Shown here: positions 1,992 through 5,980 of the stretch, one piece after another
Position numbering within the stretch: position 1 is the stretch's first letter
Layout: each line of letters opens with the position of its first letter
Origin: a virus
Virus genome (UHGV): UHGV-0214057
Strand: one strand, 5' to 3'
Length of the DNA stretch: 15,856 nucleotides
Made by a program: the position numbers and the translations under genes
The notes under the pieces: model-generated
The model's input: the letters and a program-made list of their open reading frames with translations, nothing else
Told to the model about the DNA's origin: nothing
Database searches by the model: none

Positions 1992-2075
1992 AAAGTGAGC
2001 CAGTCAAATGGAAGGTATCGTTAAACTCACCGGTAGTGTCAGTGGGTCGTCTGAGATGCCTGCATGAGTTATCAG

Positions 2076-2107
2076 AGCCATCAGTACTTAACTGGTGGCT
2101 TTTTTTA
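2076..2107 (+). terminator. Rho-independent terminator-like hairpin between esterase and holin
   Basis: AGCCATCAG (2076-2084), 7-nt loop, CTGGTGGCT (2092-2100), then TTTTTTT (2101-2107). Confidence 0.45.
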
Positions 2108-2141: not shown

Positions 2142-2357
2142 ATGTACCAGATGGAAAAAATCACAACAGGTGTGTCATACACCACGTCAGCGGTGGGAAC
2201 GGGCTACTGGTTCCTGCAGTTGCTGGACAGGGTTTCCCCGTCTCAGTGGGCGGCAATAGGCGTGCTGGGGAGTCTGCTGTTTGGGCTGCTGACGTACCTG
2301 ACTAACCTGTATTTCAAAATCAAAGAGGACCGGCGTAAGGCGGCGCGGGGAGAGTAA
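2142..2357 (+). CDS. S: Class II holin (pinholin), 933W/21 S-type, 71 aa
   Basis: [71 protein letters not shown] closely matches the Stx-phage S holin as I recall it. Dual-start motif Met1/Met4, two TM segments, charged C-tail; GGAGACGGGG ribosome-binding site upstream of ATG 2142. The track ORF from 2064 is an in-frame upstream extension. Confidence 0.85.
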
Positions 2358-2358
2358 A

Positions 2359-3252
2359 GTGATGAATAAAAAATATGAACTGGTTGTTAAGGGGATAAAT
2401 AATTACGGGGGTAAGGTTACTGTTACTGTGAAGCCGGAAGGTGACGGGCAAGCGTCGCTGTTGTTGCCAGATGTGGCGATTAGTCTTGACCGTACTGAAG
2501 GTGCCACGCTGGAGTTTTACGAAGCTGAGGCGAAAAAGCAGGCGAAGCAGTTTTTCATGGATGTTGCTGCTGGGTTATGTGAATGGAACGAACCGTTGCC
2601 GGAAAAGCGCCCCGTAATTTTAGAGGCGCAGGATGTGTTGATAACCTACAAAGGAAAGCTACCGGGAAGAATTACTTGTTCTCTGAAGATGCCGCCGTCA
2701 ACACTGCGGTCAGAAAAAGATGATGTTGAATCACGTATTGAAAAACTGGAGAGCTACGTCGTTGAGCTGAATAAGAAATGGTCGATATTGGTGCCTTCTG
2801 GCGATGAAAAGCAGTTTGCTGCGTTTGACGATTATTGTCGGAAAGTGATGAGCAGAAATCTCGCAGAGTGTTTCAGTATTCATAATGATAATTTCAGTGA
2901 GCTGGAATGGGAGTGTAACCGGCCATCCTTTGTTGTATCCGGTGATGCTGGGAAAATAACCATCTCAGAAAATGGGAAAGTAACACCTCCATCGCACCAG
3001 CACAGTGAGGGGCTCATTGAATTTGCCATTGATTACCTGAAGAACAATAAAAAGCAGGGGCTGATGAAGCGCGTTGGCCGTTGCATGGGATATCTTCAGG
3101 TAGCCGCTGAGATTGAAGCGCTGGCCAGTGGTGCTGATAAGGATGCAATTGTGCGGGAGGCTCTTCTTCGTGATTTTAATACTCCACCCTTTAAAAAAGT
3201 GCCGGCTTACTGGCTTCATCCGGGGCTGACTTATCTTAAAGTGCGTATTTAG
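2359..3252 (+). CDS. Hypothetical protein, 297 aa, no recognisable domain; moron between holin and endolysin
   Basis: Uninterrupted ORF beginning GTG 2359 / ATG 2362, 2-5 nt after the holin stop (TAA 2355-2357), with GGAGAG upstream: looks translationally coupled. Visibly more AT-rich than flanking genes. No TM segment or signal peptide evident. Confidence 0.65.
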   Translation: MMNKKYELVVKGINNYGGKVTVTVKPEGDGQASLLLPDVAISLDRTEGATLEFYEAEAKKQAKQFFMDVAAGLCEWNEPLPEKRPVILEAQDVLITYKGKLPGRITCSLKMPPSTLRSEKDDVESRIEKLESYVVELNKKWSILVPSGDEKQFAAFDDYCRKVMSRNLAECFSIHNDNFSELEWECNRPSFVVSGDAGKITISENGKVTPPSHQHSEGLIEFAIDYLKNNKKQGLMKRVGRCMGYLQVAAEIEALASGADKDAIVREALLRDFNTPPFKKVPAYWLHPGLTYLKVRI

Positions 3253-3288
3253 TGGGCCAGGGACAGCGGCTGAATATTTAATATATCC

Positions 3289-3822
3289 ATGAACACCAAA
3301 ATCAAATACGGCCTGTCGGCTGCCGTTCTGGCGCTGATTGCCGCTGGTGCGCCTGCGCCTGACATTCTCGACCAGTTTCTGGATGAAAAGGAAGGCAACC
3401 ACACCACAGCATACCGTGATGGTGCAGGTATCTGGACCATCTGCCGTGGTGCCATCATGGTGGATGGCAAACCTGTCGTTCCGGGCATGAAGTTGTCGAA
3501 GGAAAAATGCGACCAGGTTAACGCCATTGAGCGTGATAAAGCGCTGGCGTGGGTGGAGAAAAACATCAGAGTGCCGCTGACCGAACCCCAGAAAGCGGGG
3601 ATCGCGTCATTCTGTCCGTACAACATTGGTCCCGGTAAGTGTTTCCCGTCGACGTTTTACAGACGAATTAATGCTGGTGATCGAAAAGGTGCCTGCGAAG
3701 CGATTCGCTGGTGGATTAAGGACGGTGGCAGAGACTGCCGTATTCGTTCAAACAACTGTTACGGTCAGGTATCCCGTCGTGACCAGGAGAGCGCGCTGGC
3801 GTGCTGGGGTATCGACAGATAA
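3289..3822 (+). CDS. R: SAR endolysin (T4-lysozyme-like / GH24 family, signal-arrest-release N-terminus)
   Basis: 177 aa; N-terminal weakly hydrophobic Gly/Ala-rich SAR segment (YGLSAAVLALIAAGAPAP) followed by the E-D-T catalytic region (EGNHTTAYRDGAGIWTICRG); near-identical to the Stx-phage R as I recall it. Confidence 0.85.
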   Translation: MNTKIKYGLSAAVLALIAAGAPAPDILDQFLDEKEGNHTTAYRDGAGIWTICRGAIMVDGKPVVPGMKLSKEKCDQVNAIERDKALAWVEKNIRVPLTEPQKAGIASFCPYNIGPGKCFPSTFYRRINAGDRKGACEAIRWWIKDGGRDCRIRSNNCYGQVSRRDQESALACWGIDR

Positions 3823-3911: not shown

Positions 3912-3951
3912 AAAAACCCCGTTTGTTGGCACCAAGCGAGGTTTTGTGTTT
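3912..3951 (+). terminator. Hairpin followed by a U-rich tract after R (possible terminator or RNA structure)
   Basis: AAAAACCCCG ... CGAGGTTTT stem with inner TTGG/CCAA pairing, followed by GTGTTTCT. A-rich on the 5' side, so it could act in both directions. Confidence 0.3.
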
Positions 3952-3979
3952 CTGACCTTGAGTAAGGCAAGGGAGAACA

Positions 3980-4161
3980 TGGCGAAGTGTAAACGAATTC
4001 TGTTGAGGTTGACTATGAAAAATGACCTTGAACTGAAAGCGCCTGTAACTGATGACATCAGCAGAGCACTGGCTTTTGCCATTAAGTGGGTGGCGGTCGG
4101 TGTTGCTGTGTCCCCGATGCTGTATGGGCTGGCAAAACTGGTCATTGCGTTGAAATCGTGA
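3980..4161 (+). CDS. Small protein (about 60 aa) with a C-terminal hydrophobic segment; function unknown
   Basis: Strong ribosome-binding site AAGGGAGAAC 5 nt before ATG 3980. Product [60 protein letters not shown] has a tail-anchor-like TM segment. Alternative start ATG 4014. Confidence 0.45.
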
Positions 4162-4175
4162 AGGGAGGATTAAGC

Positions 4176-4307
4176 ATGTCAGACAAACTCATAACGCTGG
4201 CGAAGATCCTCTGTGTAATTGTCGGCATTTCATTTTCACTAATGCTGGTTGCTCTTTTTCTTTCCATGGCCTGGATGATGTTGTCTTCGTCGGGGTTGCT
4301 GGGGTGA
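4176..4307 (+). CDS. Small single-pass membrane protein (43 aa); function unknown
   Basis: Ribosome-binding site AAGGGAGGA 6 nt before ATG 4176. Product [43 protein letters not shown] has one central TM segment. Stop TGA 4305-4307 overlaps the Rz GTG start (GTGA). Confidence 0.45.
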
Positions 4308-4777: not shown

Positions 4778-5127
4778 GTTTTGTTGATGCGCCGTATCGT
4801 CGCTGTATTCCCTCATTAACAGAGACCGCAGCCCGACAGGGAGACTCCTCTGCGCGAGTGTGCGGGGATAATCAAAAACGATACACACCGGGGTTTACCG
4901 CGTTAACGGAGCGCGGCGTTGTCCCCTCATAGTCGCCTGTCCGGTGCGATGGTGGAAGAAGCCGGATGTTTATCACTATTAATTGATGACACAGAAATGG
5001 ATTCATTGAATTTCAGCACGTTTTTGTATTCGTGTTATTGAACATCTGTTTATTTTACTTTTAACATATTGATAATAAAAAGAGCTGTAAATCTTTAGAT
5101 GAGTCGATTTTGTCCGGGGAAGTTCAA

Positions 5128-5268
5128 ATGGATTTTATGCTGACGGTTTCTGGTGTGGTTATCCTGTCCATTGCTTATACTGCAGATAAATATGGCTGCC
5201 ATTTGTTATCACGTATTGGCGCTTATTGTTCGTTGATGCTGATTTTCTCGTCGCTTTTTTTTGAGTAA
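5128..5268 (+). CDS. Possible small hydrophobic peptide (46 aa) in an AT-rich island
   Basis: ATG 5128 preceded by GGGGA (8-nt spacing). Product MDFMLTVSGVVILSIAYTADKYGCHLLSRIGAYCSLMLIFSSLFFE. Below the 60-aa cut-off of the ORF track; coding status uncertain. Confidence 0.2.
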   Translation: MDFMLTVSGVVILSIAYTADKYGCHLLSRIGAYCSLMLIFSSLFFE

Positions 5269-5400
5269 GTTATATTAATTATAACAAATAATTTTCTGTG
5301 TTATTTTTTCAGGCTATCCCGTCAGAGGGGAAGCCTGTACTGCCGGGGAGCGAATGGAAAACTGATGTGTCCGGTAACTGCGTGTTCTGTGAACACCATG

Positions 5401-5586
5401 TTACTTAATTATGTAATTCATACCCGAACTCTCTGTTGACAGCCTTCTTCTGCAGGCTTCAATAACCCACGCTGAAAAGTTTCCTGAACCTTTCAGATCA
5501 AGAGCGATGTTAATTTGTTCAATCATCTGGTTTGGAAATCGGATGTTGCGGGTTGTTGTTCTGCGGGTTCTGTTCTTTGATGACAT
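5401..5586 (-). CDS. Small ribbon-helix-helix-like DNA-binding protein (DUF3950 / YlcI-like), 61 aa
   Basis: MSSKNRTRRTTTRNIRFPNQMIEQINIALDLKGSGNFSAWVIEACRRRL: basic N-tail, a short beta-strand motif (RNIRF) and two helices. Resembles the small ylcI-type genes found just upstream of the terminase small subunit in E. coli lambdoid prophages (from memory). GGGGA ribosome-binding site upstream on the minus strand. Confidence 0.5.
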   Translation of the reverse strand: MSSKNRTRRTTTRNIRFPNQMIEQINIALDLKGSGNFSAWVIEACRRRLSTESSGMNYIIK

Positions 5587-5639
5587 AATGTTTCCCCATA
5601 TTCAGTGTTGCTGATTTGTATTATCTGAAGTTGCTTTTA

Positions 5640-5975
5640 CGTTAATTTGACGCAGATCAATTAATACGATACCTGCGTCATAATTGATTATTTCTCGTGG
5701 TTTGATGGCGTACACACATGTTGTGATAAACCTTATATAGATGATAATCATTATCATTTCGTGGGTCCTTTCCGGCGATCCGACCGGTTACGGGGCGGCG
5801 ACCTCGCGGGTTTTCGCTATTTATGAAAATTTTCCGGGGAAAATCATGTCGGTACTTCTCGAACATAACTATTTGTTTTTTCTAATATCGAATCCGTAAA
5901 AGGTCCGACATGAAAACGCCTAAAAAAGTCATTTTCGGGCACTTTCATGTCGGCCCCTGTATTTATTGTGAGACT
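5640..5975 (+). other. cos: cos site: cosQ-proximal conserved sequence, cosN (12-nt cohesive end GGGCGGCGACCT at 5793-5804) and cosB
   Basis: 5762-5840 (GGGTCCTTTCCGGCGATCCGACCGGTTACGGGGCGGCGACCTCGCGGGTTTTCGCTATTTATGAAAATTTTCCGG) is near-identical to the joined right and left ends of phage lambda as I recall them. Nu1 starts 189 nt after the first cosN base (191 in lambda). Confidence 0.8.
5845..5953 (+). repeat. cosB R-element candidates: three copies of the octamer CATGTCGG (5845-5852 direct, 5905-5912 inverted, 5946-5953 direct)
   Basis: Direct / inverted / direct arrangement with an A/T-rich spacer between the first and second copy mirrors the lambda R3-I1-R2-R1 layout, but the repeat sequence is not lambda's. 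Confidence 0.5.
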
Positions 5976-5980
5976 GTTTC

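What the first reader, a model, noticed from the sequence alone, without database searches (positions are those of the whole stretch)
2359..3252. Unknown 297-aa gene between pinholin S and SAR endolysin R, apparently translationally coupled to the holin
In lambda, 21 and 933W-type lysis cassettes as I know them, R follows S directly. Here a 894-nt ORF begins 2-5 nt after the holin stop, ends 36 nt before R, and is visibly more AT-rich than its neighbours, the signature of a horizontally acquired moron. It has no TM segment, no signal peptide and no motif I can assign. Its position means it would be made with the late lysis genes and released at lysis, like Stx toxin, so a lysis-released effector or toxin, a lysis-timing regulator or an abortive-infection or anti-defence factor are all plausible. 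A small ORF (ydfR-type) between holin and lysozyme is known in E. coli cryptic prophages, but not one of this size or sequence to my knowledge.
Basis: partly seen in the sequence, partly recalled or inferred. Interest (0 to 1): 0.75.

Follow-up and report, generated by a model that had tools for sequence, protein, structure and literature searches.

The report
Long-form YdfR (DUF1327) prophage late gene
The "unknown" gene between the holin and the endolysin is a real, intact, long version of the common E. coli prophage gene ydfR, a family that is already catalogued and normally sits at this spot, so it is ordinary in identity although its function is still unknown.

Summary
The true start is ATG 2362, giving 296 aa. 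It begins 4 nt after the holin stop and ends 36 nt before R. It is soluble and AT-richer than its neighbours (GC3 0.47 against 0.60-0.71).

It is not an unknown insertion. Residues 2-101 are a DUF1327/YdfR domain (Pfam E=2e-39). The whole protein matches phrog_1085 end to end (E=5e-188). NCBI names its homologues "YdfR family protein". Full-length copies occur in 496 of 5,426 complete E. coli genomes, and the N-domain occurs in 3,154.

It has two modules. One is the YdfR N-domain, 46% identical to K-12 YdfR, which was reported in 2026 to bind the RNase E catalytic domain and to co-purify RNA. The other is an undescribed C-terminal module (dN/dS 0.15-0.37) that is confined to Escherichia and Salmonella prophages. 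In many relatives this module is paired with a convergent ~104-aa gene that the window lacks.

Structure and profile searches gave no functional match. My best guess, at low confidence, is a late-expressed cytoplasmic adaptor acting on host RNase E or RNA. A lysis-timing role is the main rival. The family is already catalogued, and interest is modest.

The parts
2362..3252 (+). Long-form ydfR-family gene (296 codons plus TAG stop)
   Evidence: ORF list. phrog_1085 matched 1-296/296, E=5e-188. 100% identical DNA in E. coli SCU-176 and intact ORFs in all five E. coli loci checked. dN/dS 0.34-0.65.
2347..2361 (+). Holin-ydfR junction: SD-like GGGGAGAG (2347-2354) inside the holin 3' end, holin stop TAA (2355-2357), 4-nt spacer (2358-2361)
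   Evidence: Sequence. GGAGAG and the 4-nt spacing are invariant in the window, BP-4795, K-12 Qin and the O25b locus.
2362..2586 (+). N-terminal DUF1327 (YdfR) domain, aa 1-75: three beta strands plus a long helix, acidic (pI 5.0)
   Evidence: Pfam PF07041 E=1.9e-39. AF2 pLDDT 66-86. 46% identical to K-12 YdfR over aa 1-74, the segment reported sufficient for binding RNase E/G (PMC13232886). dN/dS is about 0.9-1.25 for aa 10-40 and 0.17-0.25 for aa 41-75 against the common allele.
2587..2721 (+). Conserved linker, aa 76-120, predicted disordered
   Evidence: pLDDT 26-38 in both models, yet conserved among E. coli forms. The short 112-114-aa YdfRs of Stx phages break off inside it at about codon 111.
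2722..2913 (+). Variable helical-hairpin or coiled-coil middle, aa 121-184
2914..3171 (+). Folded part of the conserved C-terminal module, aa 185-270: three short strands plus three helices, basic (module pI 9.4), motif H..II..AI..L...GRCMG(Y/L)LQVAAEIEA
   Evidence: AF2 pLDDT 72-90. H214, G239, G243, L245, Q246, A249 and I251 are invariant across 62 Escherichia and Salmonella sequences. dN/dS 0.15-0.37. No Pfam family. Only 37 cluster representatives among 1.84 billion proteins.
3172..3249 (+). Highly conserved but predicted-disordered C-terminal tail, aa 271-296 (DF(D/N)xPPFK..P..W..PG..YLK.RI)
   Evidence: P276 and K278 are invariant. D271, F272, P275, F277, P281, W284, P287, G288, Y291, L292 and R295 are at least 90% conserved. 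pLDDT 33-50. By inference this is a candidate partner-binding peptide.
3253..3288 (.). 36-nt spacer before R; in relatives this slot holds a convergent ~104-aa partner gene (orf6-like, phrog_1853)
   Evidence: Alignment with phage 86, L014 and L003. L003 retains the last ~7 codons of the partner, which indicates a ~390-bp deletion. tblastn finds no partner in the window.
2142..2357 (+). S21-type class II holin (71 aa, dual start M1/M4), context gene
   Evidence: PF04971 E=1.8e-32, phrog_9876 and phrog_20 'holin'. 100% identical protein in many Stx phages. The 97-aa ORF from 2064 in the ORF list is an over-extension.
3289..3822 (+). Phage lysozyme R with SAR-like N-terminus, context gene
   Evidence: PF00959 E=2.4e-24, phrog_7 'endolysin'. 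Annotated rrrQ or lysozyme in relatives.

Best explanation
Shown: this is an intact, selected, long-form member of the YdfR (DUF1327) family. That family is the habitual occupant of the slot between the S21-type holin and the R21-type endolysin in E. coli lambdoid prophages. It is a soluble ~33-kDa protein with no promoter-like site of its own, so it is probably made only from the Q-dependent late transcript, probably coupled to holin translation. It consists of an acidic DUF1327 N-domain, a disordered conserved linker, a variable helical middle, and a basic, strongly conserved C-terminal module that ends in a conserved disordered peptide. Inferred mechanism: it acts inside the infected cell during the late phase as a modular adaptor. 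The N-domain docks on the catalytic N-terminal half of host RNase E (and RNase G), on RNA, or on both, as reported for K-12 YdfR residues 1-72. The helical middle oligomerises the protein. The C-module and tail engage a second ligand, which could be RNA, a host factor, or, in relatives that carry it, the convergent orf6-like partner. The net effect would be to modulate RNA decay, for example by protecting the long late transcript or redirecting RNase E. It would not act in membrane lysis itself. The identity part is about 0.95 certain. The mechanism part is a low-confidence best guess.
For: Identity: Pfam DUF1327 at 134 bits; phrog_1085 end to end; 'YdfR family protein' names and 496 of 5,426 genomes with full-length copies; the same position in K-12 Qin (essQ-ydfR-rrrQ), BP-4795, phage 86 and O104:H4. 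A real gene: intact ORFs and dN/dS well below 1 in the C-module and in the N-domain helix. Late and cytoplasmic: no + strand promoter-like site, invariant SD and 4-nt spacer, no TM segment. Mechanism: 46% identity to K-12 YdfR over exactly the region (aa 1-72) sufficient for two-hybrid interaction with Rne and Rng; co-purification of Rne(1-598) with Strep-YdfR; DNase-resistant nucleic acid in YdfR eluates (PMC13232886; identity). The two-module architecture is conserved down to ~30% identity in Salmonella. The C-module is basic with a conserved disordered tail typical of a binding peptide. In Salmonella the homologue lies upstream of unrelated holin families, which argues for a general late-phase role rather than a holin-specific one.
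Against: The RNase E link rests on one study of a 46%-identical truncated paralogue. In that study ydfR overexpression changed few transcripts and did not affect growth, and the authors could not exclude a contaminating RNA binder. Nothing was tested on the long form. No fold or profile match supports RNA binding. About three quarters of phage records with this holin lack any YdfR-like gene, so the function is dispensable. The two modules also occur separately at the same junction (N-only in L013, BP-4795 and K-12; C-only in L014), so they need not act together.
Confidence: 0.35

Rival explanations
1. Soluble lysis-timing modulator. The protein binds the cytoplasmic, highly basic C-terminal tail of the S21 pinholin, or the pre-release SAR endolysin, and tunes when the membrane is depolarised. 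This would be analogous in logic to T4 RIII, a cytoplasmic cofactor of holin inhibition (the analogy is from my own knowledge).
For: In every E. coli locus inspected the gene starts 3-4 nt after an S21-type holin, with an invariant SD inside the holin's end. Even the C-only 213-aa form keeps this abutment. The N-domain is acidic (pI 5.0) and the holin tail is basic ([13 protein letters not shown]). The K-12 ydfR deletion mutant appears in the hit lists of an envelope-permeability screen (PMC3879167 supplements).
Against: Salmonella homologues sit upstream of HP1-type or Phage_holin_3_1 holins and are separated from them by an opposite-strand gene. 328 of 434 phage records with this holin lack the gene. 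The envelope phenotype of the K-12 deletion could be a polar effect on rrrQ (my inference). ydfR overexpression gives no growth defect.
Confidence: 0.2
2. Cargo released at lysis, a toxin or effector acting outside the bacterium, as the first reader proposed by analogy with Stx.
For: The gene has accessory-gene-like base composition. It lies in the late region that also carries Stx, the NanS-p esterase (123-1991) and, in Salmonella locus L010, a pertussis-like ArtA toxin gene.
Against: No similarity to any toxin or effector family in Pfam or NCBIfam and no fold hit. No signal peptide. The gene is common in commensal and non-STEC genomes, including a healthy-carrier isolate with an identical copy. 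Its paralogue binds a cytoplasmic bacterial enzyme.
Confidence: 0.05
3. Phage-phage conflict factor, meaning superinfection exclusion, abortive infection or anti-defence. The variable N-domain patch would reflect an arms race.
For: aa 10-40 show dN/dS of about 0.9-1.25 between alleles, against about 0.2 in the adjacent helix. The junction is a hot spot where modules are swapped and small opposite-strand genes vary, a pattern often seen at defence or accessory-gene islands (my own knowledge).
Against: No PADLOC hit (best E=0.049 at 9.9 bits). No promoter of its own, so it is not expected to be expressed in the lysogen. Almost no ydfR reads were seen in K-12 under standard growth. Late expression is the wrong time for anti-defence. 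The dN/dS estimate rests on 31 codons and could reflect a recombination patch.
Confidence: 0.1
4. Functionless remnant: an ORF that persists by chance in a decaying prophage, as the RefSeq 'pseudogene' labels imply.
For: PGAP (NCBI's annotation pipeline) labels the first 112 codons 'incomplete, missing C-terminus' in four genomes and the first 75 codons in a fifth. Shorter truncated derivatives exist, such as K-12 and BP-4795.
Against: All long forms checked are uninterrupted ORFs. C-module dN/dS is 0.15-0.37 and Salmonella pairs give 0.24-0.29. The architecture is conserved between genera at ~30% identity. Clusters of 962, 648 and 584 member sequences exist for the 296-, 329- and 268-aa forms.
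Confidence: 0.03

Closest known systems
E. coli K-12 YdfR (b1555, Qin prophage; Pfam DUF1327/PF07041)
   Same: Homologous N-domain (46% identity over aa 1-74). Identical genomic slot, essQ(holin)-ydfR-rrrQ(lysozyme), with the same SD and 4-nt spacer. Function formally unknown.
   Different: K-12 YdfR is 103 aa. Its homology stops at about codon 74, so it lacks the linker, the helical middle and the C-terminal module. It looks like a truncated derivative. RNase E binding was shown for it, not for the long form.
phrog_1085 / NCBI 'YdfR family protein' (296-aa class)
   Same: End-to-end match (1-296/296, E=5e-188). 97-100% identical sequences are already in public databases.
   Different: None in sequence. 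The family carries no functional annotation, and RefSeq often annotates only the first 112 codons, as a pseudogene.
Stx2-converting phage 86 orf5 (268 aa) plus orf6; the same pair occurs in E. coli O104:H4 2011C-3493
   Same: Same junction, same N-domain, linker and C-module. The surrounding region is ~97% identical to the window.
   Different: The middle segment differs. A convergent 104-aa gene (orf6, phrog_1853) follows orf5. The window has only a 36-nt spacer there.
RapZ, an RNase E adaptor protein of E. coli (functional analogy only)
   Same: RapZ binds the RNase E catalytic domain and an RNA. K-12 YdfR fell into the same interaction class as RapZ in the two-hybrid study (PMC13232886).
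   Different: No sequence or fold similarity was found. No target RNA is known, and no effect on RNase E activity has been shown.
T4 RIII, a soluble cytoplasmic lysis-inhibition cofactor (functional analogy for the rival; from my own knowledge)
   Same: A small soluble protein encoded by a phage that could act on the cytoplasmic part of a holin.
   Different: No homology. RIII is not encoded inside the lysis cassette. No lysis phenotype is known for YdfR proteins.

Membership tests
YdfR family / Pfam DUF1327 (PF07041) | Match to the family HMM above the curated gathering score | tested here: met
   134.2 bits against a cut-off of 25, E=1.9e-39, aa 2-101 on profile positions 1-88 of 93.
YdfR family / Pfam DUF1327 (PF07041) | Location directly downstream of an S21-type (class II) holin and upstream of the phage lysozyme | tested here: met
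   Window: holin 2142-2357, gene 2362-3252, R 3289-3822. The order is the same in K-12 Qin, BP-4795, phage 86, O104:H4 and others.
YdfR family / Pfam DUF1327 (PF07041) | Small single-domain protein of about 100-115 aa, as in K-12 and Stx-phage YdfR | tested here: not met
   296 aa with a linker, a helical middle and a C-terminal module in addition. This is the long architectural class of the family.
YdfR family / Pfam DUF1327 (PF07041) | Binding to the RNase E N-terminal catalytic half, or to RNA (reported for K-12 YdfR) | not testable with these tools
   Only 46% identity over the mapped interaction region; the literature source is PMC13232886.
phrog_1085 (phage protein family, unknown function) | Full-length match to the family profile | tested here: met
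   aa 2-297 of the GTG-start translation (297 aa) on profile positions 1-296 of 296, E=5.3e-188. Salmonella homologues also hit it (E about 1e-28).
C-module plus orf6-like convergent gene pair (seen in phage 86, O104:H4, L014, Salmonella L008, L017, L018) | A ~104-aa phrog_1853 gene tail-to-tail immediately 3' of the C-module gene | tested here: not met
   No tblastn hit in the window. There is only a 36-nt spacer. A deletion scar is visible in the related L003.
Holins, antiholins and spanins (membrane lysis proteins) | At least one transmembrane segment, a SAR domain or a lipobox | tested here: not met
   Maximum 19-residue Kyte-Doolittle mean 0.75. No holin or spanin family hits.
Known phage-borne toxins and effectors (Stx, ArtA or pertussis-like, CDT, T3SS effectors) | Profile or fold match to a toxin or effector family, or a secretion signal | tested here: not met
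Known anti-phage defence systems (PADLOC-DB) | Match to a defence-system protein model | tested here: not met
   Best hit PbeC, E=0.049 at 9.9 bits, not significant.

The most novel reading that the evidence does not exclude
The conserved C-terminal module, with its co-diverging convergent ~104-aa partner in many relatives, could be an undescribed two-gene late-operon module of enterobacterial lambdoid prophages. Fused to the RNase E-docking DUF1327 domain, it would make the long YdfR a phage-encoded adaptor that reprogrammes host RNase E in the minutes before lysis. That would be a new class of temperate-phage RNA-decay modulator hiding inside the lysis cassette, largely unannotated in RefSeq.
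Probability: 0.12. Interest if true: 0.6.

Novelty: already known. Interest (0 to 1): 0.3.

Why it matters
The finding as stated, a novel unknown gene at the S-R junction, reduces to a common and already catalogued family. It should not be ranked as a discovery. Three points keep some value. First, the long forms are real selected genes that PGAP reduces to a truncated 'pseudogene' (the first 112 codons in four of the five inspected, 75 in the fifth). In most of the records listed for the C-module search, nothing is annotated over a conserved module that is present in 787 complete E. coli genomes, including relatives of the O104:H4 outbreak strain. Second, the short K-12 YdfR now under experimental study looks like a truncated remnant, so its newly reported RNase E and RNA binding would be better examined in the full-length protein. 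Third, the holin-endolysin junction is a recombination hot spot that carries separable modules and a conserved convergent partner gene. This gives a concrete and testable entry point to an uncharacterised late function of Stx-type and other lambdoid prophages.

Tried and rejected
- **NCBIfam and PADLOC scans:** only insignificant hits.
- **PDB sequence search with a family profile:** only coiled-coil noise, E at least 0.6.
- **AlphaFold2 models:** two models, mean pLDDT 54 and 61. Only the two end modules are modelled usefully.
- **Internal duplication of the N and C modules** (both are three strands followed by helices): rejected, hhalign probability 0.2%.
- **Exhaustive HMM search with the C-module:** only 37 cluster representatives, all the same narrow family, with no informative fusions.
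- **Pfam on Salmonella homologues and on the opposite-strand partners:** nothing. PHROGs gave only 'unknown function' families.
- **Promoter scans:** no own promoter for the gene, and none convincing for the partner in phage 86.
- **Literature:** nothing on DUF1327 function beyond PMC13232886, and no paper on the long form. The cited envelope-screen hit for ydfR appears only in supplementary lists, with no follow-up.
- **Pseudogene reading suggested by RefSeq:** rejected on ORF integrity and dN/dS.

Full report
**Observation.** The ORF is present as described at 2359..3252 on the + strand. The ATG at 2362 is the real start. Every homologue begins MNKK/MKKK/MTQ-YEL at that codon, and the GTG three bases upstream is not conserved (GCG in BP-4795). 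The product is therefore 296 aa. The holin stop (TAA, 2355-2357) is followed by a 4-nt spacer. The GGAGAG at 2349-2354 and the spacer length are invariant in the window, BP-4795, the K-12 Qin prophage and an O25b prophage. That fits coupled or re-initiated translation, although nothing here proves coupling. The stop TAG at 3250-3252 lies 36 nt before the R start at 3289. The gene has GC 0.462 and GC3 0.465. There is no hydrophobic stretch (maximum 19-residue Kyte-Doolittle mean 0.75). The neighbours are an S21-type holin (PF04971, E=1.8e-32; real start 2142 with a dual-start MYQMEK, so the 97-aa ORF in the list is an over-extension), a phage lysozyme with a Gly/Ala-rich SAR-like N-terminus, an Rz/Rz1 spanin pair, and upstream a NanS-p-type SASA esterase.

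**What it is.** Residues 2-101 match Pfam DUF1327 at 134 bits against a cut-off of 25. The whole protein matches PHROG family phrog_1085 from first to last position (E=5e-188). Public databases hold a 97%-identical cluster of 962 member sequences, and sources name the homologues 'YdfR family protein'. A 100%-identical copy lies in a prophage of E. coli SCU-176, a commensal isolate. Of 5,426 complete E. coli genomes, 496 carry at least 80% of the gene, 787 carry the C-terminal module and 3,154 carry the N-domain. Among phage records, 434 encode this holin type and 106 encode a YdfR-like protein, mostly a short 112-114-aa form in Stx1, Stx2c and some Stx2a phages. In every locus I inspected the gene directly follows the holin. 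The window's lysis region is about 97% identical to a prophage of the O104:H4 outbreak strains, which carry the 268-aa variant.

**It is a real gene.** All five E. coli long-form loci examined have uninterrupted ORFs. Pairwise dN/dS is 0.34-0.65 for the whole gene, 0.15-0.37 for the C-terminal module and 0.24-0.29 between Salmonella homologues. RefSeq's PGAP nevertheless annotates only a truncated stretch of the long forms as an 'incomplete, missing C-terminus' pseudogene: the first 112 codons in four genomes and the first 75 in a fifth. In most of the rows listed for the C-module search, nothing is annotated over the match. This is an annotation artefact and not evidence of decay.

**Anatomy.** Alignments and two AlphaFold2 models (mean pLDDT only 54 and 61) agree on four parts.
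- aa 1-75: an acidic DUF1327 domain of three strands and a long helix (pLDDT 66-86).
- aa 76-120: a conserved linker that is predicted disordered.
- aa 121-184: a low-confidence helical hairpin. All the length variation of the family (268, 287, 296, 305 and 329-333 aa) maps here.
- aa 185-296: a basic module (pI 9.4) of three short strands and three helices (pLDDT 72-90), followed by a 26-residue tail, DF(D/N)xPPFK..P..W..PG..YLK.RI. The tail is among the most conserved stretches of the protein yet is predicted disordered. That is the usual signature of a peptide that folds on a partner (my inference).

There is no sign that the N and C modules are duplicates (hhalign probability 0.2%).

**Evolutionary context.** An exhaustive profile search with the C-module found only 37 cluster representatives among 1.84 billion proteins. 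The more distant ones, mostly Salmonella enterica 'hypothetical proteins' of 250-320 aa, keep the same N-plus-C architecture at about 30% identity and also hit phrog_1085. In Salmonella prophages the gene still lies in the Q-dependent late region. There, however, it sits upstream of HP1-type or Phage_holin_3_1 holins, next to other accessory genes such as KilA-N, DUF4406 and, in one locus, a pertussis-like toxin subunit. The conserved feature is therefore a late-operon accessory position, and abutment to the S21 holin is not conserved outside E. coli.

In E. coli the modules also occur alone at the same junction. N-only forms break off at different points: about codon 74 in K-12 and about codon 111 in BP-4795 and an O25b prophage. 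A C-only 213-aa form starts 3 nt after the holin. The different break points inside a conserved reading frame suggest that the short YdfRs are truncated derivatives of the long form (my inference).

**A conserved partner the window lacks.** In Stx2 phage 86 (orf6), O104:H4, the C-only locus L014, Salmonella L008 and the two most divergent metagenomic loci (L017, L018), a convergent ~104-aa gene follows the C-module gene immediately. It belongs to phrog_1853, has no Pfam family, and has diverged in step with the C-module (23-68% identity). The window has only the 36-nt spacer there. The related 329-aa locus L003 still holds the last ~7 codons of the partner before jumping to the sequence upstream of R, which is a clean ~390-bp deletion. 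The C-module remains under purifying selection in partner-less forms (dN/dS 0.15-0.19), so the partner is not obligatory. Other loci hold unrelated small opposite-strand ORFs in the same slot.

The only experimental lead is a 2026 study (PMC13232886). [quoted passage not shown] Rne(1-598) co-purified with Strep-YdfR, and the eluate carried DNase-resistant nucleic acid. Overexpression, however, changed few transcripts and did not affect growth, and the authors could not exclude a contaminant as the RNA binder. The window's aa 1-74 are 46% identical to that segment. The K-12 deletion mutant also appears in the supplementary hit lists of an envelope-permeability screen (PMC3879167). That result could be a polar effect on the downstream lysozyme gene (my inference).

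**Best explanation and rivals.** I am about 95% confident of the identity: a long-form YdfR-family late gene, real, soluble, with no promoter-like site of its own on the + strand. For mechanism I commit, at about 0.35, to a late-phase cytoplasmic adaptor. Its N-domain would dock on RNase E/G or RNA, and its C-module and tail would bind a second ligand, so that the protein modulates RNA decay and takes no part in membrane lysis.

- **Soluble lysis-timing modulator (0.2).** This is supported by the invariant abutment to S21 holins and the acidic N-domain facing a basic holin tail. It is weakened by the Salmonella contexts and by the gene's absence from about three quarters of phage records with this holin.
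- **Phage-conflict role (0.1).** It has only circumstantial support. aa 10-40 show dN/dS of about 0.9-1.25 between alleles against about 0.2 in the neighbouring helix, but this rests on 31 codons and could be a recombination patch.
- **Lysis-released toxin or effector (0.05).** There is no supporting match, and the gene is common in commensals.
- **Functionless remnant (0.03).** The selection data contradict it.

**Verdict.** The family and this exact sequence class are already catalogued, so novelty is 'already known' and interest is modest (0.3). The residual value lies in four things: the systematic mis-annotation of the long forms, the undescribed C-terminal module and its conserved partner gene, the indication that K-12 YdfR is a truncated remnant, and a testable link to RNase E.

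Noticed in passing
L002 4179-4493 (-); L015 3542-3856 (-); L014 2859-3215 (-); L008 4832-5149 (-); L017 436-759 (-); L018 585-902 (-); corresponding slot in the window 3253-3288: A ~104-aa gene (orf6 of Stx2 phage 86; phrog_1853, no Pfam) lies tail-to-tail right after C-module genes in E. coli, Salmonella and divergent metagenomic loci. It co-diverges with them (23-68% identity). It is absent from the window, and L003 shows a ~390-bp deletion scar that keeps its last ~7 codons.
   Followed up: yes
L001 9004-9339; L003 2502-2837; L004 2504-2839; L005 2502-2726; L015 2726-3061 (window equivalent 2362-3252): RefSeq (PGAP) annotates only a truncated stretch of the intact long-form genes as a pseudogene 'missing C-terminus': the first 112 codons in four genomes and the first 75 in L005. 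In most rows listed for the C-module search, which found the module in 787 of 5,426 complete E. coli genomes, nothing is annotated over the match.
   Followed up: yes
window 2389-2481 (aa 10-40 of the protein): There is a cluster of amino-acid replacements in strands 2-3 and their loop (window YGGKVTVTVKPEGDGQAS against the common YPDKITVTVALEIGGYPS). dN/dS is about 0.9-1.25, against about 0.2 in the adjacent helix. This could be positive selection or a recombination patch, and only 31 codons are involved.
   Followed up: partly
window 2074-2102 (+), also L002 3075-3103: A strong terminator-like hairpin (12 pairs followed by a T-run) sits between the esterase gene and the true holin start, inside the over-extended 97-aa holin ORF. 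It is conserved in Stx2 phage 86 and is presumably read through by Q-modified polymerase.
   Followed up: no
window 3946-4161 (+) and 4086-4307 (+): There are two small ORFs between R and Rz. One is a 71-aa ORF matching phrog_1115 (unknown function). The other is an overlapping ORF whose C-terminal 43 aa ([35 protein letters not shown]...) form a hydrophobic, membrane-like segment. Relatives annotate two short hypothetical proteins here (L001 10621-10803 and 10818-10949).
   Followed up: no
window about 4800-5980: The stretch between Rz and the small terminase gene is the most AT-rich part of the window (GC 0.36-0.41). It carries a minus-strand 61-aa ORF (5401-5586) in the position where relatives annotate a YlcI/YnfO family protein. 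It looks more like a horizontally acquired accessory region than the gene in question does.
   Followed up: no
L010 2210-3019 (Salmonella enterica subsp. diarizonae contig): A pertussis-toxin-S1-like (ArtA-type) gene lies in the same late accessory region about 1 kb upstream of the YdfR-like gene. The family therefore shares its neighbourhood with true lysis-released toxins in some prophages.
   Followed up: no
window 3172-3195 (aa 271-278, DFNTPPFK; family consensus DFDNPPFK): From memory only, the conserved acidic-Pro-Phe motif resembles the C-terminal tip of E. coli SSB (DFDDDIPF), a hub peptide for genome-maintenance proteins. Here the motif is internal and not at a free C-terminus, and nothing was tested. 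It is a lead and carries no evidential weight.
   Followed up: no
L019 963-1532 (+): In one divergent locus the YdfR-like gene is followed by a same-strand 189-aa protein with hydrophobic segments, not an opposite-strand ORF, and then by an S21-type holin. This is yet another occupant of the variable slot.
   Followed up: no
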